Shown here piece by piece: positions 4,011 to 58,416 of a stretch of DNA of 64,000 nucleotides. The notes under the pieces were generated by a model, which searched no databases, was not told where the DNA came from, and saw only the letters and a program-made list of their open reading frames with translations. The stretch is from a virus (Duplodnaviria; Caudoviricetes): the IMG/VR virus record IMGVR_UViG_3300017700_000931, positions 256,001 to 320,000 of that record, one strand, 5' to 3'. Numbering within the stretch: position 1 is the stretch's first letter; each line of letters opens with the position of its first letter. The position numbers were made by a program, and so were the translations under genes.

Positions 4011-5171
4011 TTAATTCATTGCAAGGTTGTAAGCCTTAGAAATCTTGGTGAGGTTTTCATTAATAATACGAATATCATTCTTAATATCATTAATGGTAAT
4101 ATCACCCGTACCTTTAAGCCCATCAAACATTTTGGTGGCTTCAATTAACATTCGGTTACCATGTCGTTTTGCGACCATTAAAGCGAATAAATCCATATCC
4201 ATCAAAAAATGTTCTGGGGTCTGGTTTGTCTCTTCCAGAAACAACTCAGTTAATTGGTTTGCCATATTGGTTAATTTAGTTTGACTGGATAAAGGTAAGA
4301 ACAACTTTTCAATATTCCAAATTATTCTTACCTTTTTTTATGCTTTTTTCAATTTCAGTCGTTGAATGTTATTTGTGTGCTTATCTTTGAAGCGTCTCCA
4401 ACCAAGACCAGACCAATAAGCATAACATTCAACAAAATCATCCTTTGCCTCATCTTTATAGGCTTGTGGGTCGAGTTCTTTTAACACCTCTCTGAATTCA
4501 TCAAACTCTGCTTTAGAAATTCCATCAGTATATTGAATTGGGTCTGTGTCAGTTGGGAGTGTCCCGAATGGGCATTCTTTGTCATCCTCAATGCTTTCAA
4601 CATTATCAGACAAATCATGGTCAAGTTGTGTTTGAAGTCCTTTTTTTGCTTTTGAAAGCGTTTCTTCTCTTGTCGCAGTTTCATCAACAATAACACGAGT
4701 TAAAAGAGTTACATGTACTAGTTTGGCTACTTTCATATTTGGTTACTTTTAGTTTGATAATGGTGGGGCGGTTAAGCCCCCACCAATTTACTCTTCTTCT
4801 TCAATAGCTTCTAACCCTGCATCCTCACCATGCACTCCAATAGCAAACCAAATTTGTTCCATTGTGGCTTCATTTTTTAAAGCGTTGTGTAGAACTTTTT
4901 GTGCCTCTTCATCAGTGCATTTGAATTTCGCTTTAACATCAGCAACACTCCAAAGGTTATCAGTATAGAATCCGGCTTTTCTCAATAGTTCTTTAGCCAA
5001 TTCAACATCACTTTTTACCACATCGAATTCAGTGTTTTTCACTTTAATCCAAATATCTTTTCTTGGGTGTTTAACACTCATCAAAGTGTCAGAAAATTCC
5101 AGTGGAAGCCCTTGTGGAAATACAACACCGAATTTTTTACTTACTTTTTGTTTTTTTAGAATAACTTTCAT
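4011..5171 (-). CDS. three hypothetical proteins (4011-4265, 4338-4736, 4788-5171)
   Basis: ORFs with leader motifs; starts corrected to the ATG after each leader. Confidence 0.8.
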
Positions 5172-5214
5172 AGTATGTGTTTTAGTTTGACGATACAAAT
5201 ATAATACTATATTT

Positions 5215-5694
5215 CTAATTAACCAAATTTTTTATAATCTTTTTTACACTTTTTTTTATTTGGGGAATTTGGTTACGTCGGAATCTAGGATTCCAGCCCG
5301 TTTCACATAAGGCAATAGATTCCATTGTCGACCAAGAAATATTGGTTATTGCAGTATATCCAGACCAACCACTGTTGGCTAAATCTTTATAGACTCCTTT
5401 AGAGTCCATATAGCAAGTGCCTAATTTAACGAAACAATGGGCTAAATACATACCCTCTGAATTGAATTCAGCTAATGTGGGTTTGTTGTTCGTTTCTAAT
5501 ATTTTATTGAATTTATCCTCAGTACAATTACGACCTAACCAAACAATTTCGGCTTTATATCCGGCTTTGCAAAGTTCCTTTGCTAGTAAATAAGCAACAA
5601 TACCACATCCACCTGCATTCAGGTTAAAATAATTTCCTTCAAGTTCATCAGGGAGTAGTACGTTAAGTTTGGTTAAGACTTTTTTGGTTACCAT
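5215..5694 (-). CDS. putative papain/transglutaminase-fold enzyme
   Basis: NAGGCGIVA ... AHCFV ... YMDSKG give a Cys-His-Asp order typical of this fold. Confidence 0.45.
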   Translation of the reverse strand: MVTKKVLTKLNVLLPDELEGNYFNLNAGGCGIVAYLLAKELCKAGYKAEIVWLGRNCTEDKFNKILETNNKPTLAEFNSEGMYLAHCFVKLGTCYMDSKGVYKDLANSGWSGYTAITNISWSTMESIALCETGWNPRFRRNQIPQIKKSVKKIIKNLVN

Positions 5695-5741: not shown

Positions 5742-6554
5742 TTATTTGAAACGTTTCAAAATGTCCTTAACGCTTTCGCTTTTCAGGGCAATGTACAACT
5801 CAATCAATTTGGTTGCTTCGTCGCTTTTGTCCTCACGTTTGTCAAGGGCTTCAACAACCTCTTTCAATTTTTGCATTGGGCTTTTTGCTGTCAAAGTAGC
5901 AACGTGTTTTGTTGTCGCTTTTTTCGGTGCTTTGCCAGTTTCAACTGCCGTTGCTTTTGCTGAATCAATTGCCTCGGTAACAATTTTCAATTGCTCATCA
6001 GCATTTTTTGTTTGCTTCACAATTTGAACAACTGTACCACCAGAAATCAAACCTTCAATTACGAAGTTTTTAATTTGTTTCCCAACGTTGGCAAGTGACA
6101 ACAAGTTGTAAATGTGTGGAACTGACTTCGCAATTTTTTGTGAAATCTCTTCTGGTTTGTAGTGCATTGCAACAAGGCGTTTAATTGCCTCAGCTTGCTC
6201 CACTTCATTCAGGGCTTTTTGCCCCGTACCAGTCACAATCATTGTGAAAATCTGGTCTTCCTCATTCCCTGTGTAAGGCGCAACCTCAACGTAAGGAATT
6301 GACTCACCTCTTTTCAAAAGAATCTGAATCGCTGCGAAACGTCTGTGACCGTCAACCAATTCGTAGGTATCTTCACCACGAGTTTTTTTAGCCTTCAATG
6401 GAACTTCCAGACCAATTGAGGCAATTGAATCTGCTAGGGCTTCCAAATCACCCATGTCAAGACGCACGTTGAATCCCTCACGTACCACAATGTTGCGTGG
6501 GTCAACAAGCATTGTATCTTTTCTTTTTGTAACTAATACTGCTCCTTTTTTCAT
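5742..6554 (-). CDS. parB: ParB/RepB/Spo0J family protein (ParB N-terminal domain + HTH)
   Basis: FNVR, LADSI..GL..PL, YELVDGHRR, LNEVEQAEAIKRL and the HTH EEISQKIAKSVPHIYNLLSL. Confidence 0.85.
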   Translation of the reverse strand: MKKGAVLVTKRKDTMLVDPRNIVVREGFNVRLDMGDLEALADSIASIGLEVPLKAKKTRGEDTYELVDGHRRFAAIQILLKRGESIPYVEVAPYTGNEEDQIFTMIVTGTGQKALNEVEQAEAIKRLVAMHYKPEEISQKIAKSVPHIYNLLSLANVGKQIKNFVIEGLISGGTVVQIVKQTKNADEQLKIVTEAIDSAKATAVETGKAPKKATTKHVATLTAKSPMQKLKEVVEALDKREDKSDEATKLIELYIALKSESVKDILKRFK

Positions 6555-6656
6555 AACTTTTTTGGTTTTTAATTAATAATGATGTGACAAATATAATAGG
6601 ATATTTTTAATTGACCAAATAATATTATAATTATTTTCGTCAAAGTTATTAACAAT

Positions 6657-8778
6657 TTAGAAATTCGTAGTGTTTTTGCCGGGTTCAGGAGCATTCTTTT
6701 TTATTACTAGGAACGCATTGCCGAAAATATTGCTAGTGAATCCAACAATAATATGTTCACCCTTTGGAGTGTCAACAACCAAATTTCCTTTTGGGTCAAT
6801 CGAAAGTTGTGAAAGTTCTTTGTTATGGTTCATAATAATATTATTTTGATAAAGGGCTTTAAAGCCCTTTGGTTAAGTGTGAATTACAAATCTGCTCTCT
6901 GACCCATAATACGAATATAATAACGGGTAAGTATTGCTAATCTCACTCAAATATCTCACTTCAATGTTAATGGTTGCACCATCCTTGCAAATTGCTTTAT
7001 ACTTGTTGTGCAAGTGTTCCAAGGCTAATTGAATTAAGTTTACATCGGTTTCCTTTAACACCGTATCAAATACAACTGGTTTCCCATCGGTTTTAACTTC
7101 AACACTTACTTTTAGAATATCGTTTTTCATAGTTGGTTACATTCATTGGTTTGATAAGGGGTATTAACCCCTATTATTATTATTTTACATTATATTCAAT
7201 AATTCTTAAACTTTTGAATGGCGCACCAGTAACCGACATACCACCACTCGAATTTGTTTTAAGAATTTCAAGGTGACAAGGAATAAAACCAGTTGACTTA
7301 CCTACAATAAATCTTCTCTTTTCTCCGTATTTGTCAACAACCTCAACTCTGTGACCTTCTTTACCAATTAATTCAGGTATTAACTGGGACTGACTTCTCC
7401 AACCAGTTTTATCATTTCTATCACTAGCAATTTTTACTAAATTAGTATAATTGGTGTATGCTTTTTTTGTACCTTTTTTCTTTGGAATTAAATCCTCCAT
7501 TCCAAGTTCTTTGGCTAAGGCAATGGTTCTATCCTGACATACATCAAAACCAAGGCAAGTGAATCCACTACCACAATTTAATACAAATAACTGTTGTTCT
7601 TTATTTATTGAATTTAACATATCTAATAGTTTTAGTTTGACAGGACAAATATAATACAATATTTGATATAAACCAAATTATTTGTATTCTTTTTTAAAAT
7701 AAGTTTTTAACTCAGCTAATGTGAATAACTTTTGGTATTGTGTACATTGTGTTCTATAACCCCCATCCACCGGAATGACGTTATCAGACTTTAACCATTT
7801 GTTGAATTCTTTCATAGGATAAAGGAGGTCTTTCGACCTCCCTTGTAACTTGGTAATGAATTTGTACATTCCATACCTAAGCCTTGTTTTTAATCTCAGT
7901 CCATTCACCGTTCCACTCTGTGCCGTTCAAATACCATGTACCTTGACGTTGGCTAATTCTTACGTTAGGTAGGCCGTTCAAACGCTCCTTAGTGGTGTTA
8001 CTTTTCCAACCTGCATTTGTAATGCTTAGTTTGGACTTTGTTAGACTGGTCAATTCTCTTTTTGCAATTACATTGCCATGCAATAAAAGTGTTGTAACTT
8101 TATCAGAAACTTCAACACTCATGTTCGCTTTTTTGAAAGGAGTCCCAGTCAAAAATGCCTCAATACTTTCTTCAGTAATTTTTTTCATAATGGTTACGTT
8201 TATTAGTTTGACAATACAAATATAATACAATATTTGATATAAACCAAATTATTTGTAATTATTTTTGATAAAGGGTTTTACCCCCTTACCATGCTTCCCC
8301 GTCACCAATAAATAATTTACCATTCTGGAAACTTGGCTCATATTCTTTATGGTCTGCAACCATATCACCAGTTTCATAGAATGTACTTAAATCAGCTAAT
8401 TCTAATTCGTGACAAACACAAACAACAAAGGTATCCCCACCATGTATAGGGTGTTCAACAAATTGAATTTTCTGACCTAATGAATTAACCATTTCACTGT
8501 AAACAGTTGGGTTCAATTCCATTAATTTTTTATAGTTTAACATGGTATAGAATTTAGTTTGACAATAGAATATTATTTTAACTACATTGACAAGTTCCAT
8601 AATCACAACAACAAGTACTACTATATACTTGACAAGTGTTACACCAATTCATTTCACCAGTGTGGCATAAGTGACATATTTTAGTATGGTCATGGCATGC
8701 CTCACATAAATCAGGGTTACCATCATGTGAATTATTAACAATTGTTAATTCAATATTACAGTCTTCGCAGTGATTCAT
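6657..8778 (-). CDS. run of small early hypothetical proteins (6657-6833, 6873-7130, 7180-7620, 7678-7869, 7877-8188, 8286-8543, 8578-8778)
   Basis: Starts corrected past promoter-derived MYYIC artefacts; 8578-8778 has 13 Cys and 6 His in 66 aa. Confidence 0.75.
8182..8261. repeat. 80-bp exact direct repeat, copy 2
   Basis: Identical to 2761-2840. Confidence 0.9.
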
Positions 8779-15011: not shown

Positions 15012-15339
15012 AATTTTCCTTTATGTTTTTCTTTCTGAATTCTTCAATATCTTCAGTCTTTATTTTACCAGCCGCTACATTCTTACCTAGGGCCTGAAGA
15101 TAACCTTCTTCTTCAATATCACCTAGGAAGAAAAATTCAGAATTATATACAACTTCTTTAACTGAGAAGATGTATGCTTTTAGCTTACCACTTATAGCTT
15201 CTTCATCAGTCATTGAGTGATAGTAATGATTGCCATCAACGGTTAGTTTAAACAATCGCCCAACCGGACAATTAGGTAATGCTTTTTTGACCATTACGAT
15301 TTTAGGTGGTTCAAGTAATTCTTTTGGAGGATTTGCCAT
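15001..15339 (-). CDS. LPxCPxG-family paralog 1
   Basis: LPNCPVGRLF...KAYIFSVKEVVYNSEFF. Confidence 0.85.
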   Translation of the reverse strand: MANPPKELLEPPKIVMVKKALPNCPVGRLFKLTVDGNHYYHSMTDEEAISGKLKAYIFSVKEVVYNSEFFFLGDIEEEGYLQALGKNVAAGKIKTEDIEEFRKKNIKENYED

Positions 15340-15340
15340 G

Positions 15341-17014
15341 TTATTCAGGTTTAAATTCTTTTGCGTCTAATAAATCTATTATGGAATCAAGGTGTTCGAG
15401 GTTTTCAATTACTGTTATGAGTTGTGGTTCGCCAACGCCATCATTAATATCAAATAGCTCGTGTGTATTGGTATTGTACATGTAATCCCAATTACCATAA
15501 ATGAATTCAATGTTATTACCTTTAAGGCAAACGAATCCACGTTCTTTGAGAATATCTGGTGTAATCATATTTTACAAAGATAAGAATTATAAATCATGTT
15601 TGACAGCAAAATCAAAAATATAATTTAAAAATAAATCACTAGTATCAGATGGTCCTTTACCAATTAATAGAATTGGAATCCACCATGTGATTGGTAGTAG
15701 AACAATGTATACCACGAAAATGATATAAATAATTCCCAGATATATTCGTTTAATTATCTTCATGTACAAACATTATAAATTGCAGCAATAAAAAAGCTAA
15801 TTATCATTCCTATTGCGATACCTAGTTTTAGTGTTGCTTTATCTTCTTCGGTAATATCTGGGACGACAATCCCATTTTCTTTAACGTATCGTGGTGGAAC
15901 AATAATTGTTTTGACTTGTGATTTAACATCATCTAAGCTAATATTGAATTTCTTTTCAATATCGGCCTTTGTACCATATATGGTTTTACCAATGTTTAAT
16001 TGATGAGCATCCTCATATACTACCATGAATTTATCCACGAAACCAGTTTCGATAACGTGTATTAATTCCGGCTCACCTTCCCATTGGAATGTTTTGCAAT
16101 TATTCTTGATTGGTATCCATTTAATATTTTCGTGCTCTTCCATGATGTCAAGTTAATATTACTTCTAGTTCGTGTCTCAATGCAATAAGTAGTGTCTCTT
16201 TATCCACTTCATAGCATTTTTTAGTTGTGTTAACACTGTTACGACTATCGCCGGAATGATAATATTTTTCACCTTGTCTTGGTATCACATCTAACATAAG
16301 GTCTAATGAATCTGATATATCAAATTCTTCTGAATCATTATACATTCTGTATGCCCATAATTCAGAAAACCATATACGTTTTACTTCATCAAATAATAGT
16401 TTATCAGGAAGACTATCAGACACTCTTTTAATGAACTCATCAATCTTAGCTCTTTTGAATTCAGTTGGGTCACATGGTTTAAAATGCTGTAGGTCCAAAT
16501 TATAATCTCTGTTAACATAGTTACCATTTTCATCAAAGAAGCAACTAATTGAGCCATATCCTTTAAAATATTCGAATTTAAAACCATGATATGTTGAAAT
16601 CTCAATTCTCTCATGGTATCTAGCAGCTACGCTAACTTCATCATATCCTTCAACTCTATGTGGATTCTTAGGCATAGCATCTTTAATACCTAATAAGATA
16701 TCATGTCCATCAGTTACGGTACCAAAGTTTTGTGTGAAGTAATCACCAACATAAAATTGTTTATTGATTTCCGTCAGCAATTTTTCTTTGGATGATGCTG
16801 GTTCAACAATGACATGTTTACCATGTCTATTTTTCACTAAGACTTCGGTATCACTAATGCGATTTATTACTTCACATTTACCTTGAAACATATCCTCTAT
16901 GATATTCTTATCTTCGATAACCCTAACGGCTTTAATTTTTGCTACCAATTCTTTATCAGTATTCTCAAATACTGAATAACCTTTTTGGTCAGCGTAATCC
17001 CCAATTCGTTTCAT
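15341..17014 (-). CDS. hypothetical proteins (15341-15568, 15587-15769 membrane, 15760-16143 C-terminal TM, 16148-17014)
   Basis: Closely packed co-oriented ORFs. Confidence 0.75.
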
Positions 17015-31942: not shown

Positions 31943-32977
31943 TTATTTCGTTAGTGTATTAACCTCAATCTTCTTTGATATCCAATGGCCATGTGAATTA
32001 TTAATCAATTGTCTAAACTCTGGCCGGACAAACTTAGCTACTGACCTTCTAAAATCAATATAATTAAATTCATCTGCAATCCTCACAACATAACCCTCAT
32101 TAGTCTTCTCATGATTGCTGAATGCTTCTATAATACTATCCTTATCATAGATACCATCATAAATTACTGGTACCATTTCAAGACCAAGTATCTTAGAGTA
32201 TTCAACTGTTTCATCCCAAGATAAGCATCTATTATCCATCCACATCGAAAACATCATAAAGTACGATTTAAGATTATCATACTTTACTGTGTGAACAGCA
32301 TACAAGTTCTCACCACAAATACGCATATTATCATCGAGCATATACCCAATTTGAGACCATAAACCTTTCACCCAATTGCGTGTTTCATGTGAGGCAGTTT
32401 CTAATGACCTAGCATGGATGTAATCATTATACATGGTGGTATTTTCACCATCCATCTTAAGTGATACAATAACCCTCTTACCAATGAAATGGCTATCATC
32501 TTTTAATATCCGGTCATCCTTTAATAAATGACTCCAAGGTAGGTGATATGTTCTAGGATATTTAACATGTTTTTGGAATAGGTCTAAGACACCGCCTTGT
32601 TGGAGAATTCGTTGTACTGATTCATCGTAGAATAATTCGCCTTTGATTCGTAGTCCGGTTGGGGTTATGATGTTACCCCATTTATCGTATGTGTAATCTG
32701 AATAGAAATGCTCTGGTAATACAATATTTTCTATACCAATTTTATTTCTAATTTCATCACAAGTGAGTGTTGTTTGTTCAGCTTCGATATGGTGTTGTTC
32801 ACAAAGGGATGCACCGTTGTTTAGATAGTAACCACCATCATGAAATAATCTACGTTCTATGATATGGTGAGCGTCCTTGGCTGGATTACCACAAATGATA
32901 CATTTGAAACCATCTCGTTCAAATGTTCCATTTCTAAATTCATCTCGTGATATGAGTTTATTTTTTTCGATAATCAA
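31943..32977 (-). CDS. ATP-dependent RNA ligase (Rnl2-like nucleotidyltransferase) with an N-terminal HNH domain
   Basis: KYPRT.HLPWS, motif I KMDG, RICGENL, FMMFSMW, EGYVVR, VAKFVR; N-terminal CIICG..AKDAHHII...NGASLCEQHH. Confidence 0.85.
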   Translation of the reverse strand: MIIEKNKLISRDEFRNGTFERDGFKCIICGNPAKDAHHIIERRLFHDGGYYLNNGASLCEQHHIEAEQTTLTCDEIRNKIGIENIVLPEHFYSDYTYDKWGNIITPTGLRIKGELFYDESVQRILQQGGVLDLFQKHVKYPRTYHLPWSHLLKDDRILKDDSHFIGKRVIVSLKMDGENTTMYNDYIHARSLETASHETRNWVKGLWSQIGYMLDDNMRICGENLYAVHTVKYDNLKSYFMMFSMWMDNRCLSWDETVEYSKILGLEMVPVIYDGIYDKDSIIEAFSNHEKTNEGYVVRIADEFNYIDFRRSVAKFVRPEFRQLINNSHGHWISKKIEVNTLTK

Positions 32978-33335
32978 TTATTTCTTCACCTTTATCATGG
33001 TTACACTCATAACAAAGTGTTTGTAAATTATTCTTTCTATTCAATCCACCTTTAATTAATGGTATGATATGGTCAATAGTAAGTGGGTTATTTTTGGAAC
33101 CAACAGACAAACACTTTAAACAAGCATTTCCATCACGTTTAAAAATGTTTAGTCTAAGAGATTTTCTAACCCGATTTTTTTTTGGCCGGATACCATATTT
33201 GAAATTTGTGTTTATTGTGTTTGGTATTTCAATTAGTCGTTTTGGTTTTTTGACTAATGGGTAAGGTGTTTCATCAACATTACCACAATTATAGCAGACA
33301 TATCTGATAAATTCATGCCCACACGAACACAACAT
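32958..33335 (-). CDS. HNH endonuclease
   Basis: IFKRDGNACLKC...LTIDHIIPLIKGG.N..NNLQTLCYECN..K. Confidence 0.9.
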   Translation of the reverse strand: MLCSCGHEFIRYVCYNCGNVDETPYPLVKKPKRLIEIPNTINTNFKYGIRPKKNRVRKSLRLNIFKRDGNACLKCLSVGSKNNPLTIDHIIPLIKGGLNRKNNLQTLCYECNHDKGEEIIDYRKK

Positions 33336-33336
33336 A

Positions 33337-33567
33337 TTATTGTTCGTTACGAAGTTTACAGAATTTACAGTTACCCTTATGGGTTAAAAAATCGGCTTGA
33401 CTACTAATGTTAGTAACACGCCCAATATATTCACAACTATCTATTGTGTATGTATTGAGTGTTCTACCATCAATAACGATATCTGTTGTTTCAACACTAA
33501 CATTAGCATTGGGATAATCACATGATGTGATTACTAGCAATGAAATAAAGAGTATAATTGTTCTCAT
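33337..33567 (-). CDS. putative lipoprotein
   Basis: LLVITS-C lipobox. Confidence 0.7.
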   Translation of the reverse strand: MRTIILFISLLVITSCDYPNANVSVETTDIVIDGRTLNTYTIDSCEYIGRVTNISSQADFLTHKGNCKFCKLRNEQ

Positions 33568-33589
33568 ATTATAATATTATTTAAAAAAT

Positions 33590-33809
33590 GTTACTTATAA
33601 AACGTCGGATTCGTAAAAACTAAGTAACTTTTCTGTATGATGTTTTTAGCACCCAAGGTATCTTCAAGGAATAAATTCCTACATGAACACCAAACCTCCA
33701 CAGAAAATGTTTTCGTTCCAAGTACAGATGAAATGTTTATACCGCTACTCAAGTTATGTCGTTTCCGAGCTTTCTTTTTTGCAAGAGGAAGTAAGATACT
33801 GACCTCCCC
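33590..33809 (-). ncRNA. ~220-nt structured RNA candidate with a loop-to-distal pseudoknot
   Basis: 7-bp 5' hairpin whose loop GTATCTT matches distal AAGATAC; 8-bp, 7-bp and 8-bp further helices; a TCG-GAAA-CGA tetraloop. Confidence 0.5.
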
Positions 33810-33823
33810 ATTCACTGTTTAAC

Positions 33824-33953
33824 TGGTGTGCCACAAGGGAATCGAACCCCACACTTTCCCAGAACAACGCTCCGTCGAGCCTTTCATCAGGTTACCCCGT
33901 ATATTATTGTTTTAACATAGCTGTCCGGCCCACTAAAACTCAATATGCAGCAC
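33824..33953 (-). ncRNA. 130-nt tRNA-shaped RNA with encoded CCA and an enlarged anticodon domain
   Basis: GTGCTGC/GTGGCAC acceptor + ACCA, TTCGATT T-loop, CCGGA/TCTGG stem enclosing ~60 nt. Confidence 0.75.
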
Positions 33954-33960
33954 AAGTAAA

Positions 33961-34079
33961 AGATTGGTTCCCATTAAAAGTATCCATCAGCTCAACAAAG
34001 GGCCTCGTGTCCCAAAAAAGCAGATACTCCGTTCTTTATTTCTTTATTTTATTTGCTTGATTCGGTAAGGAACCAATCT
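33961..34079 (-). ncRNA. 119-nt structured RNA candidate
   Basis: AGATTGGTTCC/GGAACCAATCT 11-bp closing stem; internal AGTATC/GATACT helix. Confidence 0.5.
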
Positions 34080-34083
34080 TTTG

Positions 34084-34184
34084 TGGGCGCAGAGGGATTC
34101 GAACCCCCATCACTCTCATAGAAGTTGGACCAGTTGCAACTGGTTTTCCCCCTCAAGTCGACATCCCCTTAGTCGCACACGCCC
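34084..34184 (-). tRNA. atypical 101-nt tRNA-like gene (possible GCA anticodon in an extended, bulged arm)
   Basis: GGGCGTG/TGCGCCC-A acceptor, CGAC/GTCG D-arm, GGGGG-TTCGAAT-CCCTC T-arm; non-canonical middle. Confidence 0.65.
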
Positions 34185-34218
34185 AAATTAAAAAATAATG
34201 ACACCCATTTCTAAGTGG

Positions 34219-34661
34219 AATGATTAGCAAGGCATCAAACATCCAAGCACCCTATTTAGTTATCTCTATGGTAACGTTTTAATCATCTTACAATAAACAA
34301 CATCACCTTAGCGTGATTATAACGAATGGATTTGGGCCTTTAATGTCAGTCGCACGACGTGTTATATCCTCACCACTCCAATTCCGTACCCCCTAACTCA
34401 GATATACACCTGCTGACCATTACGTTTAACAGGGTCGCCAATTTCGGCTTAATTTTCATCTGAGGATTGGTTGCATCTATTGTTTGTTACTGCTTATCTT
34501 CAGTAGTCATTATTTTTATGAGTGAGTATGACGTATGCCGTCCTTTGGATTTACCCGCAGACCAACGGTTCTCTCACCCATGTTTTTATAAAAATAGAAT
34601 CACTTTCATAATCAGGACCATTTTTATTCGGTGTGCCTCACCAACATGATTACTAATCACT
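34219..34661 (-). ncRNA. ~440-nt large multi-helix RNA candidate
   Basis: End-to-end 10-bp + 6-bp pairing with G-U pairs on the minus strand; internal 9-, 7-, 6-, 6- and 5-bp helices; no long minus-strand ORF. Confidence 0.65.
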
Positions 34662-34697
34662 ATCTATTTTTCAATACTTCAAAGAACTATTCTATTG

Positions 34698-34787
34698 TGG
34701 CGATACTGTGAATCTAACACAGTTTTGCAAAAATTACAGAATCAGTATCTGTGTCATCTAGCCGTCCTAACATTAGACGATACCGCC
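34698..34787 (-). tRNA. atypical 90-nt tRNA-like gene (Glu/Gln-type body, CTG in the anticodon hairpin)
   Basis: GGCGGTA/TATCGCC-A acceptor, GTC-TAATGTTAG-GAC D-arm, 10-nt insertion, ACAGA-TACTGAT-TCTGT, CTGTG-TTAGATT-CACAG. Confidence 0.6.
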
Positions 34788-34792
34788 AATTA

Positions 34793-35754
34793 TTAATTAT
34801 ATTCTAGGATATTTTCAATTAAAACATCCCCAACTTCATTTTCAAAATCAATATTCTTTATGATGGTTTGATTCTCCAAAACCAATACATCATGTTCATT
34901 GAGGGCCATCACTCTTCGTGTTGGTTCACCGTCCTGATAAAGGTCAAACACCATTCCTCGTTTCATCACCAAGTTATTCATTACCTGTTATTCGCTTCCA
35001 TATAACTCCAATCAATAAGCAAATTGCTCCAATGATTAAAAGTTCTAGAAATGTTATATCACAAGGAAGTATCATAATATTTTAATCAATTACTACAACA
35101 CCAATGTTATTATCAATACAAAAATTTTGAATGGCTTCATCAAATAATGTTATATCGCCAAACATCCGGTAGACTCTAAGTGTGTTTGCACTTGGGGAAT
35201 ACTTACCATCAAAATGAACACAAGTTCCATTTACTTCAATTCGTTCTTGTCGGTAGGTTTTTCTATCGTCTTTCATTGGTTCATTTATTTTGACAAAGAT
35301 AAGTAGAAAATTTCAATCTACCAAATAAAAATCAAAATAATTTACAACAATAATAAAACTAATGCAGCAAAGCCGGATAATACATAGGCTGTAATACCAA
35401 CACTAATAACTCCATAACCAGTAAATCTGAGTTTTAATTCTTTAAAACCGCCATTATATAGGTCACTAATAACCCAATTAAATGTCCAGAAAAGTACTGG
35501 TATCATCCATGCAATCAAATATTCATCTTTCATTTTATGTTGTTTTAAATAACTACTTCACCATCTTCATCCAGTTCACACCACTCTTGAACACACTCAT
35601 CAAAAGTTTCTTCATCATCACAATCTGAATATGTAAAGATTCGACCATTCCAATAACATACCATCATTTCAGTTTCATTCCATTCAGGACATTTTACTAG
35701 ATATTTGGTATCTACTTTTAATTGATTTTCAGTATTAAATCTATGTTTGTACAT
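34793..35754 (-). CDS. small hypothetical proteins (34793-34981, 35082-35276, 35342-35533 membrane, 35545-35754)
   Basis: ORF track. Confidence 0.7.
35294..35325 (-). promoter_or_regulatory. promoter upstream of the ncRNA island
   Basis: TATCTTTG 35294-35301 and TTTG 35322-35325 on the minus strand, 20-nt spacer. Confidence 0.85.
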
Positions 35755-43905: not shown

Positions 43906-44091
43906 AATATGGAGGTAGCTGAAAATCCTAGATAAGAGTAGGCAAAACAAATAAATCACATTATGAAAACTTTTTTTAAAAATGTATTTACGATTGCAAC
44001 AGGAATTATTGTTGCACTTGTAATTATAGGTGGGATTGTTGTGGCTGTCCTTTATGCTACAAATCCTAATCTAATGAATTATTAGTAAATC

Positions 44092-55886: not shown

Positions 55887-58416
55887 ATGAAACGATTAAT
55901 TTTACTATTTACATTTTTCATCGCATTAAATGCGAATTCTCAATTAGATACGATACAGAAACCTTGTATTGCTGTCACTAATGAGACGAAAGATACACTC
56001 TATGTTGTTGTGGATATGTATACCATGTTTTTAATAATGTGGGAGAACCCAACCATTACTGATGCTAAGCCAGTAATTATACCTGTGACTTCACTTCAAT
56101 CGTATTACCGCCGAGAAGATTAATATGTTTCAACCACAACTAAAACATAAAGCCAAACATGGTAATTATAGGGATAAACCTACTAAAGGAGAGGTCCTTG
56201 GTTTGATGTCTTTATATAGTGGTGTGAGTGATATGGTTTTAAATAAAAAGCCAGTTAAAAAACAAATTGGTGTTCAACTTAGATTAGAATTTTAAATGAA
56301 AGAAAAAATAAAAAAATTCATTAATGAAACACCAAATAGTGTTCTGTTTTGGAATGCTATGTATTATGTTGTATTGATTGCATCAGCCCTTTACGATATT
56401 GATTTAATGATTTTCTTATATGGTATCAGTAGCCTTATTGCAATTGGTATTATCTACGATAAGGATGAGGAAAATCATTTGTGGACCGCAACATCCTTAC
56501 CTGTTTTATTTCTCATTGTGGTTACTGGAATTGGATTTGCTATTGGGTATCCGTTATATAAACTTATATTCTGGATAAACGACAAACTGGATGGTAAGAA
56601 GAAAAAATAGGACATTAACTTGGACACAGTGTCCAAGTTAAATAATATTATAATATGGAAAAATTTTCATTATTCAATGTAGCTTTGTACGCTAAAGGTT
56701 GGTATCTTAAAGAACACAAACAAGATATCTGGAAAGACCTTAAGGTTATGCTAACACTTGATGATTACTCCGGTGAGATAATGACTAAAAAGGATGTCAC
56801 CAATCTTATATTATATCATTGTGGAAGATTAGATATTAGAGCATTTAACGACCTAAGTTGTTTTGCTGACGGCATTAGTGCTGATAATGGTTGGCGGTAT
56901 GGTTATGAAACCAAATATAATAGACCATTTCTAACCTCTAAAGAAGAAAATGATTCATTGCCTGAATATGATTATCATGAGGCGATTGTTCGCTATTGCT
57001 TATCAGCGATAAAAAACACTACGATTGATAAATTGGTTGATGATTTAACATTGCCAAGACCCAACTACAAGCTTGGCCTACGCAAGCCAAAACACATTAC
57101 CACTGCAATGCTTAAACAACATTTTCCAGATAATGTGAAAACTGATGTTGTTAAAGTAGAAACTATTAAATTGAATTGGTCCAATGTATTTAACACAAAA
57201 CAATGGCTAGATACATTAAGTACTTTCACTACTATTGATGTGGCTCGTAAACGAGCAAAGGATAGTGGGTATGTTTATTTCATTTGGAATGATGTTGTGT
57301 ATAATACTAATGGTGAAAGATTAGAATGTACTCAAGAAGATATCAATACTAATTCTTCAAATTGTTTAATTAATTTATAAGAGATGTTAGAATTAAAAGG
57401 TGATGAACATATCATGTATGGTTGGACATACCACGGTGGGTGTCGTGACCATGCTGTACCGGATGAGATTATGGTTTCACAAATAAGTGGGCTATATCAG
57501 GATGGTAAATTAGTCACAACTCATTTCTTATATGGTCATAAATCACTTTCTGAAGATATGACACTAGATAAGATTGTGGCAATTGGTGACAATGAAAATG
57601 GAACTCTTGAAGTTAATGGTTGGGGTGGTAAGTATCGCATCGTTAACCAAGAACTTTTTGATAAGTACGTTGAACAAGGATTAATCGTTTTTAAACAATA
57701 ATATGACAACACAGCACCACAAAAATGTTTGGACCACATTCGATGGTCGTAAGATATTCATTGATAGATTAGAGGACCAACATCTATCAAACATTTATTG
57801 GTTCTATCTATTATTCTGGGGTGAAAAGAATATCAGCCCGAAAATAATTACTGAATTGATGAAACGATTTGGTTCTCTTGATAATATCCTATATTTCAAG
57901 CCACTCCCAATACCAAGTGAGATTGCTGATTTACGTAAGAAGGGCCATATTGCTGGTCAAAAAATCGTTATGATTCAAAACGGTAAACAGGTTGTCATTG
58001 GTAGCATTTCTCACATTCCAGTATCTCAACAATATTAATTTAAACTAAAATTTATGGTATCATACGCACAAAAACACGGAAAAGAAATTATTAACTGGGA
58101 TAAAGAATTATCCGGCACCATCACTCCAAATCGTATGGATGATTTGGTTAGTTATTCTGATAGCTGGGATACTTGTCCGATTGGTCAGCTCTCTAATGTA
58201 ATACCTAGAGAATTATCTGGTGAGGCAAAGGATAGTTTATTAGCCACACTTGCTATAAAATTTACTGAGTCATTCAAAAGTAATGATATTGCTTCTGCAA
58301 AGCATTTTCTCACATTAATAAAAGCACACAGTAAATTTATTGTTGAGCAAGTTGAGTCAGCTAAATTGCTTGAATTGGATACCTTCTATAAAGAAAGTGG
58401 TAAAAAACGACCATAG
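55887..58416 (+). CDS. run of hypothetical proteins (55887-56123 exported, 56296-56610 multi-TM, 56655-57380, 57384-57701, 57703-58038, 58054-58416)
   Basis: ORF track. Confidence 0.75.
56615..56641. repeat. 13-bp inverted repeat with a 1-nt spacer
   Basis: TTAACTTGGACAC-A-GTGTCCAAGTTAA, intergenic. Confidence 0.8.

What the first reader, a model, noticed from the sequence alone, without database searches (positions are those of the whole stretch)
34219..34661. ~440-nt ornate RNA candidate with paired ends and probable pseudoknots
Seen on the minus strand: AGTGATTAGT (34661-34652) pairs with GCTAATCATT (34228-34219) and GAGGCA pairs with TGCCTT. The imperfect positions are G-U on this strand and mismatches on the other. 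Internal helices: ATGGGTGAG/CTCACTCAT (9 bp), CTCAGAT/ATCTGAG (7 bp) enclosing CCTGTT/AGCAGG, TATAAC/GTTATA crossing GAGTGG/CCATTC, plus ATCAC/GTGAT and TACTG/CAGTA hairpins. I could not find RNase P, tmRNA or group I intron core motifs. Inference: a large structured RNA of the GOLLD/ROOL type or a new class.
Basis: partly seen in the sequence, partly recalled or inferred. Interest (0 to 1): 0.85.

Follow-up and report, generated by a model that had tools for sequence, protein, structure and literature searches.

The report
Orphan untranslated RNA stretch behind phage boxA
A 443-base protein-free stretch of a 362-kb phage lies directly behind a copy of boxA, the signal its likely Bacteroidota host uses for ribosomal RNA transcription, and between tRNA-shaped elements, so it is probably made as RNA, but neither the proposed ornate fold nor any relative could be confirmed.

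Summary
They are not more than chance gives.

- **Fold stability:** the z-score is -1.8 to -2.3. Ordinary coding windows of the same genome average -1.47.
- **Helix counts and the end-to-end helix:** both fall inside the shuffled and genomic controls.
- **Known families:** Rfam 15 gives nothing. That covers GOLLD, ROOL, RNase P, tmRNA, group I introns and HEARO.
- **Relatives:** none was found in phage, metagenome or bacterial collections, by BLAST, nhmmer or two single-sequence covariance models. Covariation therefore cannot be tested.

What is real is the setting. The window comes from a 362.5-kb jumbo phage with 57 tRNAs. The stretch has at least nine stops in every frame and is GC-enriched (95th percentile). 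It sits between tRNA-shaped modules, upstream of an HNH gene and an HNH-RNA ligase gene.

New here: 6 nt upstream lies AGTTCTTTGAAGTATTG. This is the boxA of Bacteroidota rRNA operons. The phage also places it 7-10 nt before two of its tRNAs. In host operons the 5' strand of the 23S end-pairing helix starts 4-8 nt after boxA, which matches the spacing seen here.

Best reading (about 40%): an orphan, boxA-led, tRNA-punctuated stable RNA. Chief rival (about 33%): a transcribed spacer with no function. The scan noted boxA-punctuated phage RNA operons before, on other DNA.

The parts
34219..34661 (-). The 443-nt untranslated stretch (the finding). GC 38.8%; no family match; no relative found.
34668..34688 (-). 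boxA (AGTTCTTTGAAGTATTGAAAA; 16-nt core at 34687-34672). It lies 9 nt after tRNA-like module A and 6 nt before the 5' strand of the end-to-end helix.
   Evidence: three stable-RNA sites in the phage; over 115 viral loci; Bacteroidota 16S-23S spacers; 62 of 124 bacterial sites lie within 400 nt upstream of a 23S start
34652..34661 (-). 5' strand of the proposed end-to-end helix P1 (AGUGAUUAGU)
   Evidence: energy -11.8 kcal/mol, not significant alone
34219..34228 (-). 3' strand of P1 (GCUAAUCAUU), followed by CCA in the genome
34518..34581 (-). Hairpin closed by the 9-bp perfect stem AUGGGUGAG/CUCACUCAU. This is the only sub-region with a locally low, strand-specific z (-2.3 to -2.7 on minus, about 0 on plus).
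34397..34464 (-). Predicted three-way junction closed by CUCAGAU/AUCUGAG, with inner CCUGUU/AGCAGG and GCC/GGC hairpins
34318..34378 (-). Proposed pseudoknot (GAGUGG/CCAUUC crossing UAUAAC/GUUAUA). The segments exist, but stems of this size are at chance level.
34698..34787 (-). tRNA-like module A (90 nt): 7-bp acceptor stem, D arm, lengthened anticodon-side arm, T arm with a UUAGAUU loop. Not called by ARAGORN or Rfam.
   Evidence: (z -2.65)
34084..34184 (-). tRNA-like module B (101 nt): intact acceptor stem, D stem and GGGGGUUCGAAUCCCUC T arm, with a rebuilt central arm
33961..34079 (-). 119-nt element closed by a 12-bp perfect stem
33824..33953 (-). tRNA-like module C (130 nt): acceptor stem, T arm, encoded CCA, and about 60 nt inserted in the anticodon arm
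35294..35301 (-). Bacteroidota-type -7 promoter box TATCTTTG with TTTG boxes upstream. It is the only such box on this strand in 33300-35600 and the likely start of the transcription unit (inferred).
32958..33335 (-). 125-aa HNH endonuclease gene downstream
   Evidence: PF01844, E 7e-12
31943..32977 (-). 344-aa HNH-RNA ligase gene downstream. In three related phages its homologue lies beside a tRNA array.
   Evidence: (PF09414, E 2.5e-28)

Best explanation
The 443 bases are an untranslated part of a stable-RNA transcription unit of a jumbo phage whose host is probably a Bacteroidota bacterium.

Shown:
- The stretch cannot code for protein.
- It is GC-enriched.
- It lies between tRNA-shaped modules.
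- It is preceded at 6 nt by a copy of the host-type rrn boxA, which the phage also puts 7-10 nt before two tRNAs in its arrays.

Inferred mechanism:
1. RNA polymerase starts at the Bacteroidota-type promoter near 35300 and reads two small genes. It then enters about 1.2 kb without translation, where Rho would normally stop it.
2. boxA RNA binds host NusB/NusE (S10) and converts the polymerase to the rrn-type termination-resistant form. It also holds the 5' end near the polymerase.
3. As a result, when the 3' strand emerges about 430 nt later, the two ends pair (P1). This is how the 23S leader and trailer pair in the host.
4. RNase P and RNase Z cut at the flanking tRNA-like modules and release an RNA of about 0.45-0.5 kb.

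What that RNA does is unknown. My guess is a phage-specific RNA of the kind found in phage tRNA islands (GOLLD and ROOL are the known examples), possibly connected with the adjacent HNH and RNA-ligase genes.
For: - Non-coding in all frames and under alternative genetic codes.
- GC 38.8%, the 95th percentile of 443-nt windows in the genome.
- boxA at 34688-34668. The same motif sits before tRNA-Trp at the head of an array and before tRNA-Glu in this phage, and after tRNAs in a related jumbo phage.
- The motif lies between the spacer tRNAs and 23S in three Bacteroidota rrn operons. Of 124 bacterial occurrences, 62 lie within 400 nt upstream of a 23S start.
- In the two host operons with a clean duplex prediction, the 5' strand of the 23S leader-trailer helix starts 4 and 8 nt after boxA. 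P1 here starts 6 nt after it.
- boxA protects long untranslated inserts from Rho and promotes looping and folding of rRNA (PMC4807359).
- The flanking modules keep intact acceptor and T arms while only the anticodon side is rebuilt. This argues against random decay.
- A bona fide GOLLD RNA sits inside a tRNA array of another boxA-using phage and is itself preceded by a boxA-like box.
- The minus strand folds better than the plus strand.
Against: - No relative was found by any method, so there is no covariation and no evidence of selection.
- Fold stability, helix counts and the P1 helix are all within the genome's background or chance.
- One boxA would also serve merely to carry the polymerase through the whole island to the downstream protein genes. 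Its presence therefore does not prove that this particular stretch is a functional RNA.
- The phage has other ORF-free spacers of 200-400 nt in its tRNA arrays.
Confidence: 0.4

Rival explanations
1. Transcribed but functionless spacer. The stretch is filler or a decayed remnant inside a degenerating tRNA-type cluster. boxA is there only to carry the polymerase through the untranslated island to the lipoprotein, HNH and ligase genes, and the helices are chance pairings.
For: - All structure statistics are within background.
- No relative exists anywhere, and neither the ligase loci nor the contigs carrying homologues of the 62-aa neighbour gene carry the island.
- In relatives the ligase lies beside ordinary tRNA arrays, so the island could be a degenerate one.
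- The three neighbouring tRNA-like modules are not decodable tRNAs.
Against: - A profile HMM of the phage's 57 tRNAs finds no tRNA remnant inside the 443 nt, although it finds T arms in the neighbouring modules and in other spacers.
- GC of 38.8% is well above the genome mean of 32.7%, and spacers in AT-rich phages usually drift AT-rich.
- 443 nt of dead sequence is unusual in a genome that is 91% coding.
- boxA is placed exactly as it is before structured RNAs.
Confidence: 0.33
2. Only part of the stretch is functional. One or more small RNAs or a cis-acting element, for example the 64-nt hairpin at 34581-34518, lie within an otherwise unstructured spacer. The single 443-nt architecture with paired ends is not real.
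For: - Only the windows over 34620-34471 and 34350-34231 have low z, and only on the minus strand. Other windows are near or above 0.
- P1 is not significant.
- The centroid structure drops many MFE pairs.
Against: The low-z windows are still only at the 5th-10th percentile of background. No terminator or promoter was found inside the stretch on the minus strand apart from a weak sigma-70-like match at 34674-34646.
Confidence: 0.15
3. A diverged member of a known large-RNA family: GOLLD, ROOL, RNase P RNA, tmRNA, a group I or II intron, or a HEARO/omega RNA.
For: - The setting (phage, tRNA-type surroundings) is the one reported for GOLLD and ROOL (PMC12286853).
- The size and paired ends loosely recall RNase P RNA.
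- HNH genes lie downstream, as with HEARO.
Against: - No Rfam family reaches E <= 10 on the stretch.
- Per-family searches of the whole phage with GOLLD, ROOL and RNase P types A and B give nothing at this place.
- ARAGORN finds no tmRNA, even when relaxed.
- The downstream HNH proteins are a 125-aa HNH and an HNH-ligase fusion, not an IscB.
Confidence: 0.04

Closest known systems
GOLLD RNA (Rfam RF02032) and ROOL RNA (RF03087): large ornate RNAs of phages and prophages
   Same: Both are phage-encoded, hundreds of nucleotides long and non-coding, and are located in or beside tRNA islands (PMC12286853). A GOLLD copy found here (L202 5010-5434, 270 bits) sits inside a phage tRNA array that uses the same boxA and has a boxA-like box at the start of its 5' region.
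   Different: There is no sequence or structure match to either covariance model. At 443 nt the stretch is shorter than ROOL (about 580 nt) and GOLLD (about 800 nt or more). It has no family of relatives and no covariation support. Its neighbours are tRNA-shaped but non-canonical elements rather than ordinary tRNAs.
rrn operon spacer: boxA followed by the 23S leader-trailer (processing) helix, transcribed by the NusB/NusE/NusA/NusG/SuhB antitermination complex
   Same: The same boxA sequence occurs at the same position after tRNA(-like) genes. A 5' helix strand starts 4-8 nt (host) or 6 nt (here) after boxA and pairs with a strand beyond the 3' end of the enclosed untranslated RNA.
   Different: The enclosed RNA is 443 nt of unknown sequence, not rRNA. 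The helix is short (10 bp plus 6 bp with a 12-nt bulge) and not statistically distinguishable from chance. Nus factor binding is untested.
Phage T4 tRNA operon with its stable RNAs 'species 1 and 2' (RNA C and D), and tRNA-punctuated precursors in general (own knowledge)
   Same: Unknown-function stable RNAs are co-transcribed with tRNAs and released by tRNA-processing enzymes.
   Different: The T4 species are about 140 nt. Here the flanking elements are tRNA mimics with rebuilt anticodon arms, and processing is only inferred.

Membership tests
GOLLD (RF02032) | Match to the conserved 3' core covariance model (gathering score 150 bits) | tested here: not met
   No hit at gathering or at E <= 10 on the stretch or anywhere in the phage. 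Positive control: L202 scored 270 bits.
GOLLD (RF02032) | Phage or prophage location near a tRNA island | tested here: met
   The phage is a jumbo phage with 57 tRNAs. The stretch is flanked by tRNA-shaped modules and by the tRNA-array boxA.
ROOL (RF03087) | Match to the covariance model (gathering score 99 bits) | tested here: not met
Bacterial RNase P RNA (RF00010, RF00011) | Match to the type A or type B model, including the P4 core | tested here: not met
   No hit at the stretch. The best hit in the phage is 7.5 bits, elsewhere in the genome.
tmRNA (RF00023) | tRNA-like domain joined to a tag reading frame, detectable by ARAGORN or Rfam | tested here: not met
   ARAGORN finds none, standard or relaxed. 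Rfam matches only the 17-nt T arm of module B, outside the stretch.
Group I intron | Catalytic core match and interrupted host gene | tested here: not met
   No Rfam intron model at E <= 10. No split exon: the flanking tRNA-like modules are each complete.
HEARO / IscB omega RNA (RF02033) | RNA model match upstream of an IscB-type (RuvC + HNH) gene | tested here: not met
   No model match. The downstream HNH proteins are a 125-aa HNH and an HNH-RNA ligase fusion.
rrn-type boxA-led stable RNA unit | boxA sequence identical in type to the host rrn spacer boxA | tested here: met
   AGTTCTTTGAAGTATTG at 34688-34672. The motif lies between the spacer tRNAs and 23S in Bacteroidota operons.
rrn-type boxA-led stable RNA unit | Untranslated RNA whose ends pair, with the 5' strand a few nucleotides after boxA | tested here: inconclusive
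   The spacing matches hosts (6 nt against 4-8 nt), but the helix is not beyond chance (P 0.09-0.23).
rrn-type boxA-led stable RNA unit | NusB/NusE binding and Rho-resistant transcription | not testable with these tools
   Needs binding and reporter assays. The role of boxA is taken from PMC4807359.

The most novel reading that the evidence does not exclude
The stretch is the first seen member of a new class of large phage RNA. It would be about 450-500 nt long, folded with the help of an rrn-type boxA that brings its two ends together, and cut out of its precursor by tRNA-processing enzymes at purpose-built tRNA mimics. It would act together with the neighbouring HNH nuclease and HNH-RNA ligase, for example as a decoy, guide or substrate in a contest over tRNA cleavage and repair between phage and host.
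Probability: 0.15. Interest if true: 0.75.

Novelty: new variant of a known kind. Interest (0 to 1): 0.4.

Why it matters
If the RNA is real, it would add a third, unrelated example beside GOLLD and ROOL of large RNAs that phages keep in tRNA-type loci and whose function is still unknown.

The firmer result is the boxA. This points to host Nus-factor antitermination and RNA chaperoning being borrowed for phage stable-RNA operons. It also gives a simple sequence handle for finding such operons and for guessing the host phylum.

The result carries a caution as well. In this genome ordinary coding windows already fold about 1.5 sd better than their shuffles, so z-scores near -2 mean little.

Tried and rejected
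**Searches for relatives, all negative**
- blastn of the gap against 50,697 GenBank phages.
- blastn and nhmmer against 26 viral and 58 metagenome loci around homologues of the neighbouring RNA ligase.
- BLAST against 15 whole related or boxA-bearing phage records. Only tRNA T-arm and boxA matches came up.
- Contigs carrying homologues of the 62-aa upstream gene. That gene is promiscuous, and none of these contigs has the island.
- Loci of the 125-aa HNH and 62-aa genes in IMG/VR.
- Single-sequence covariance models of nt 78-270 and nt 284-443, run over 12 jumbo-phage records; the first was also run over 100 boxA loci. They found only themselves.
- Exact-word scans of IMG/VR with two core 15-mers and with the module-B palindrome plus T loop. 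These gave chance hits or none.

**Readings rejected**
- Hidden gene under TAG=Q or TGA=W, or a pseudogene.
- Decayed tRNAs inside the stretch: tRNA HMM and relaxed ARAGORN with introns.
- RNase P RNA. I noticed a P1/P2/P3-like order and a possible long-range 6-bp pairing by eye, but the covariance models give nothing.
- Captured host rrn spacer: only boxA matches bacterial loci.
- Internal repeats.
- My first guess that many viral boxA hits were host rRNA contamination was wrong. Rfam found tRNAs, GOLLD and a c4-2 RNA there, but no rRNA.

**Not available**

Full report
**Where the window comes from**

The window is bases 256001-320000 of a 362,532-bp IMG/VR virus record with direct terminal repeats, rated 100% complete. 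The record is about 32.7% GC and carries 57 ARAGORN tRNA genes, nearly all between 9 and 70 kb. Its large terminase has relatives at only about 70% amino-acid identity in IMG/VR. The phage is therefore rather isolated in the data I could reach.

**Checking the observation**

The stretch lies in a gap, 33816-34792, with no minus-strand ORF of 60 aa or more. This holds under table 11, under TAG=Q and under table 4. All six frames of 34190-34700 carry 9-19 stops. It is non-coding.

RNAfold gives -113 kcal/mol on the minus strand, with z = -2.30 against 100 dinucleotide shuffles. The plus strand gives z = -0.76. My own repeat gave z = -1.84 on the minus strand.

**Is that more than chance?** No, on four separate tests.

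- *Whole-stretch stability.* Thirty-six random 443-nt windows taken from the sense strand of the phage's own genes have mean z -1.47, sd 1.13. Between 8 and 16 of them reach the target's value.
- *Local stability.* With 120-nt windows the best parts of the stretch (34620-34471 and 34350-34231) reach z -2.1 to -2.7. The background's 10th and 5th percentiles are -2.34 and -2.68. Many other windows of the stretch are positive.
- *Helix counts.* Shuffled versions of the sequence contain on average a longest perfect stem of 8.0 bp (9 observed, P = 0.29), 4.6 perfect stems of 7 bp or more (9 observed, P = 0.05) and 19 stems of 6 bp or more (26 observed, P = 0.06).
- *The end-to-end helix.* Its duplex energy is -11.8 kcal/mol. 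This is equalled in 8.8% of shuffles and in 23% of random genomic controls.

This does not show the RNA is unstructured, because many real RNAs have unremarkable z-scores.

**Known families**

- Rfam 15 at gathering thresholds finds only a tRNA-Met and a DUF805b element elsewhere in the window.
- At E <= 10 the gap yields only the 17-nt T arm of a neighbouring element.
- Per-family searches of the whole phage with RNase P type A, RNase P type B, GOLLD and ROOL find nothing at this place.
- The GOLLD model demonstrably works here: it scored 270 bits on locus L202.
- ARAGORN finds no tRNA or tmRNA in the stretch, even relaxed and with introns allowed.
- A profile HMM of the phage's 57 tRNAs hits only the T arms of the neighbouring modules.

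**Relatives**

None was found. The full list of searches is under Tried and rejected; the main ones follow.

- GenBank phages.
- Loci around 84 homologues of the adjacent RNA ligase, from viral and metagenome collections.
- Fifteen whole related or boxA-bearing phage records.
- Contigs of the 62-aa neighbour's homologues.
- Two single-sequence covariance models.
- Three exact-word scans.

Covariation, the test that would decide the matter, is therefore impossible at present.

**What the surroundings show**

On the minus strand the order is:

1. a Bacteroidota-type -7 promoter box, TATCTTTG, at 35301-35294;
2. two small genes;
3. a 90-nt tRNA-shaped module (34787-34698);
4. the motif AGTTCTTTGAAGTATTGAAAA (34688-34668);
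5. the 443-nt stretch;
6. a 101-nt tRNA-shaped module (34184-34084);
7. a 119-nt element closed by a 12-bp stem;
8. a 130-nt tRNA-shaped module with encoded CCA (33953-33824);
9. a small lipoprotein-like gene, a 125-aa HNH gene and a 344-aa HNH-RNA ligase gene.

The three modules keep 7-bp acceptor stems and T arms. Their anticodon sides are lengthened or carry insertions. Random decay would not leave that pattern.

In three related phages the ligase homologue lies beside ordinary tRNA arrays (L005, L008, L010).

**The motif is boxA**

I came to it through weak BLAST hits just upstream of the stretch.

- *In this phage* the 16-nt core recurs, with one to three mismatches, at two other stable-RNA sites: 9 nt before tRNA-Trp at the head of the 55-58 kb array, and 7 nt before tRNA-Glu. 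A related jumbo phage has it 8-9 nt after tRNAs.
At 24 of the 115 sites a tRNA lies within 60 nt on the same strand. Others follow terminators.
- *In bacterial genomes* the hits are overwhelmingly Bacteroidota: Pedobacter, Sphingobacterium, Mucilaginibacter, Chitinophaga, Dysgonomonas and others.
- *In three of these,* Rfam places the motif between the spacer tRNAs and the 23S gene. Of 124 bacterial occurrences, 62 lie within 400 nt upstream of a 23S start.

That position, and the resemblance to the E. coli box GCUCUUUAACAA (own knowledge), identify it as the rrn spacer boxA. boxA is the NusB/NusE site of the ribosomal antitermination complex. rrn operons carry one copy before 16S and one before 23S. 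boxA rescues long untranslated inserts from Rho, and the complex is thought to loop the nascent RNA and aid its maturation (PMC4807359).

**Geometry**

In the two host operons that gave a clean duplex prediction (L329, L379), the 5' strand of the helix that pairs the 23S leader with its trailer begins 8 and 4 nt after the 18-nt motif. In the third (L324) it also begins directly after boxA, by eye. In the phage the acceptor stems of tRNA-Trp and tRNA-Glu begin 9 and 7 nt after the 16-nt core.

The stretch therefore occupies the position where a structured RNA with paired ends is expected. This is an argument by analogy. It raises my belief that the stretch is made, and perhaps folded, as a unit. 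Because P1 alone is not significant, it proves nothing.

**A precedent**

L202, a phage contig found through the boxA scan, carries a GOLLD RNA (5010-5434) in the middle of a tRNA array. A boxA-like box, GTTCTTTAAATTATTG, lies at 4574, where the variable 5' region of GOLLD should begin. The consensus boxA follows at 5691, before the next tRNAs. GOLLD and ROOL are reported to lie near tRNA islands of phages and remain of unknown function (PMC12286853). The present stretch resembles them in setting, not in sequence or structure.

**Weighing the readings**

*For a functional RNA:* the stretch is non-coding and GC-enriched at the 95th percentile. It has no tRNA remnants, unlike other GC-rich spacers of the phage's arrays, which do contain T arms. 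boxA is placed exactly as before structured RNAs. The flanking tRNA mimics look maintained.

*Against:* there is no conservation, no statistical sign of structure and no expression data. One boxA would be needed anyway to carry the polymerase across 1.2 kb of untranslated RNA to the downstream genes.

I put about 0.40 on a discrete, processed, functional orphan RNA, 0.33 on a functionless transcribed spacer, 0.15 on a smaller functional element within it, and 0.04 on a diverged known family. The remainder is for something else.

**Earlier notes of this scan**

Notes on this genome describe the same island and its tRNA-shaped modules. My folds and scans agree with their descriptions but do not test their functional ideas. 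Two notes on other genomes report rrn-type boxA in phage tRNA leaders (e1-5368349) and a boxA-punctuated structured-RNA operon in a 184-kb phage (e1-1195242). I read both after reaching the boxA identification independently. They show that the scan has met this arrangement before, on other DNA.

**Verdict**

The non-coding stretch is real and sits in an interesting, newly clarified setting. The ornate 443-nt fold and the link to GOLLD or ROOL are not established. Interest is moderate.

Noticed in passing
window 34668-34688 (-); G000:C1 58033 (-) and 31373 (-); L201-L315; L316-L435: The Bacteroidota rrn spacer boxA (AGTTCTTTGAMRTATTGR) is reused by this jumbo phage before two tRNAs and before the 443-nt stretch. 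It could serve as a marker for phage stable-RNA operons and as a hint to the host phylum.
   Followed up: yes
L202:4574-5707: A GOLLD RNA (Rfam 270 bits, 5010-5434) lies inside a phage tRNA array. It is preceded by a boxA-like box at 4574 and followed by a terminator-like hairpin and the consensus boxA at 5691.
   Followed up: partly
G000:C1 13389-13771, 14975-15176, 15339-15682, 30517-30819, 31088-31277, 56619-56918 (all minus strand): ORF-poor spacers inside the phage's tRNA arrays, mostly GC-rich (0.36-0.45). They hold tRNA-like elements that ARAGORN and Rfam miss (T-arm hits; three T arms in 56619-56918). They also hold non-tRNA segments of 150-260 nt that fold with closing stems, for example the 3' 258 nt of 15339-15682.
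   Followed up: partly
window 33824-33953, 34084-34184, 34698-34787 (-): Three tRNA-shaped modules with intact acceptor and T arms but lengthened or interrupted anticodon arms. The loop of module A (UACUGAU) resembles a tRNA-Gln(CUG) anticodon loop with A in place of U33. These are possible processing signals or decoys.
   Followed up: partly
L201:3130-3263; L237:864-991; L201:4185-4282: Rfam tRNA hits of 98-134 nt in other boxA-bearing phage contigs. Oversized tRNAs with internal insertions recur in these phages.
   Followed up: no
L005, L008, L010 (ligase at about 6001-7020 or 478-1500): Homologues of the HNH-RNA ligase lie directly beside tRNA arrays of 4-14 genes in related jumbo phages, which fits a tRNA-repair role. 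The fusion is also present at 45-54% identity in the Salicola SCTP-2, Ralstonia RsoM2USA, Caulobacter CcrSC-group and Acinetobacter ME3 phages.
   Followed up: partly
L201, L217, L222, L223, L225, L238, L251, L261, L280, L290, L293, L302 (sequence after boxA): A dozen viral contigs share near-identical sequence on both sides of boxA (...gggagactgggaacaacagagaag-boxA-taaaatggtgttttggaagccgacacgtgc...). Several other such groups exist. These may be conserved boxA-led RNAs that have enough copies for covariation analysis.
   Followed up: no
window 43909-43944 (+); L007:5088-5123: A DUF805b RNA motif (Rfam RF02914, 41.7 and 39 bits) is present in this phage and in a related jumbo phage.
   Followed up: no
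window 33961-34079 (-): A 119-nt element closed by a perfect 12-bp stem (AGAUUGGUUCCU/GGGAACCAAUCU). Its z is about -2.4 to -2.8 on both strands. It lies between two tRNA-like modules.
   Followed up: no
G000 genome-wide: Sense-strand coding windows of 443 nt fold on average 1.47 sd better than their dinucleotide shuffles. z-scores near -2 are therefore uninformative in this genome.
   Followed up: yes
window 34793-34981 (-): The 62-aa gene just upstream has homologues (53-76% identity) on many short metagenome contigs in entirely different gene neighbourhoods. It is a small, promiscuous phage gene of unknown function.
   Followed up: partly
G000:C1 18639-19566, 198913-199749, 266039-266683, 67155-67776, 40015-40572: Other ORF-free gaps of 560-930 nt in the phage have near-average GC (0.30-0.37) and no Rfam match. 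They remain unexplained.
   Followed up: partly
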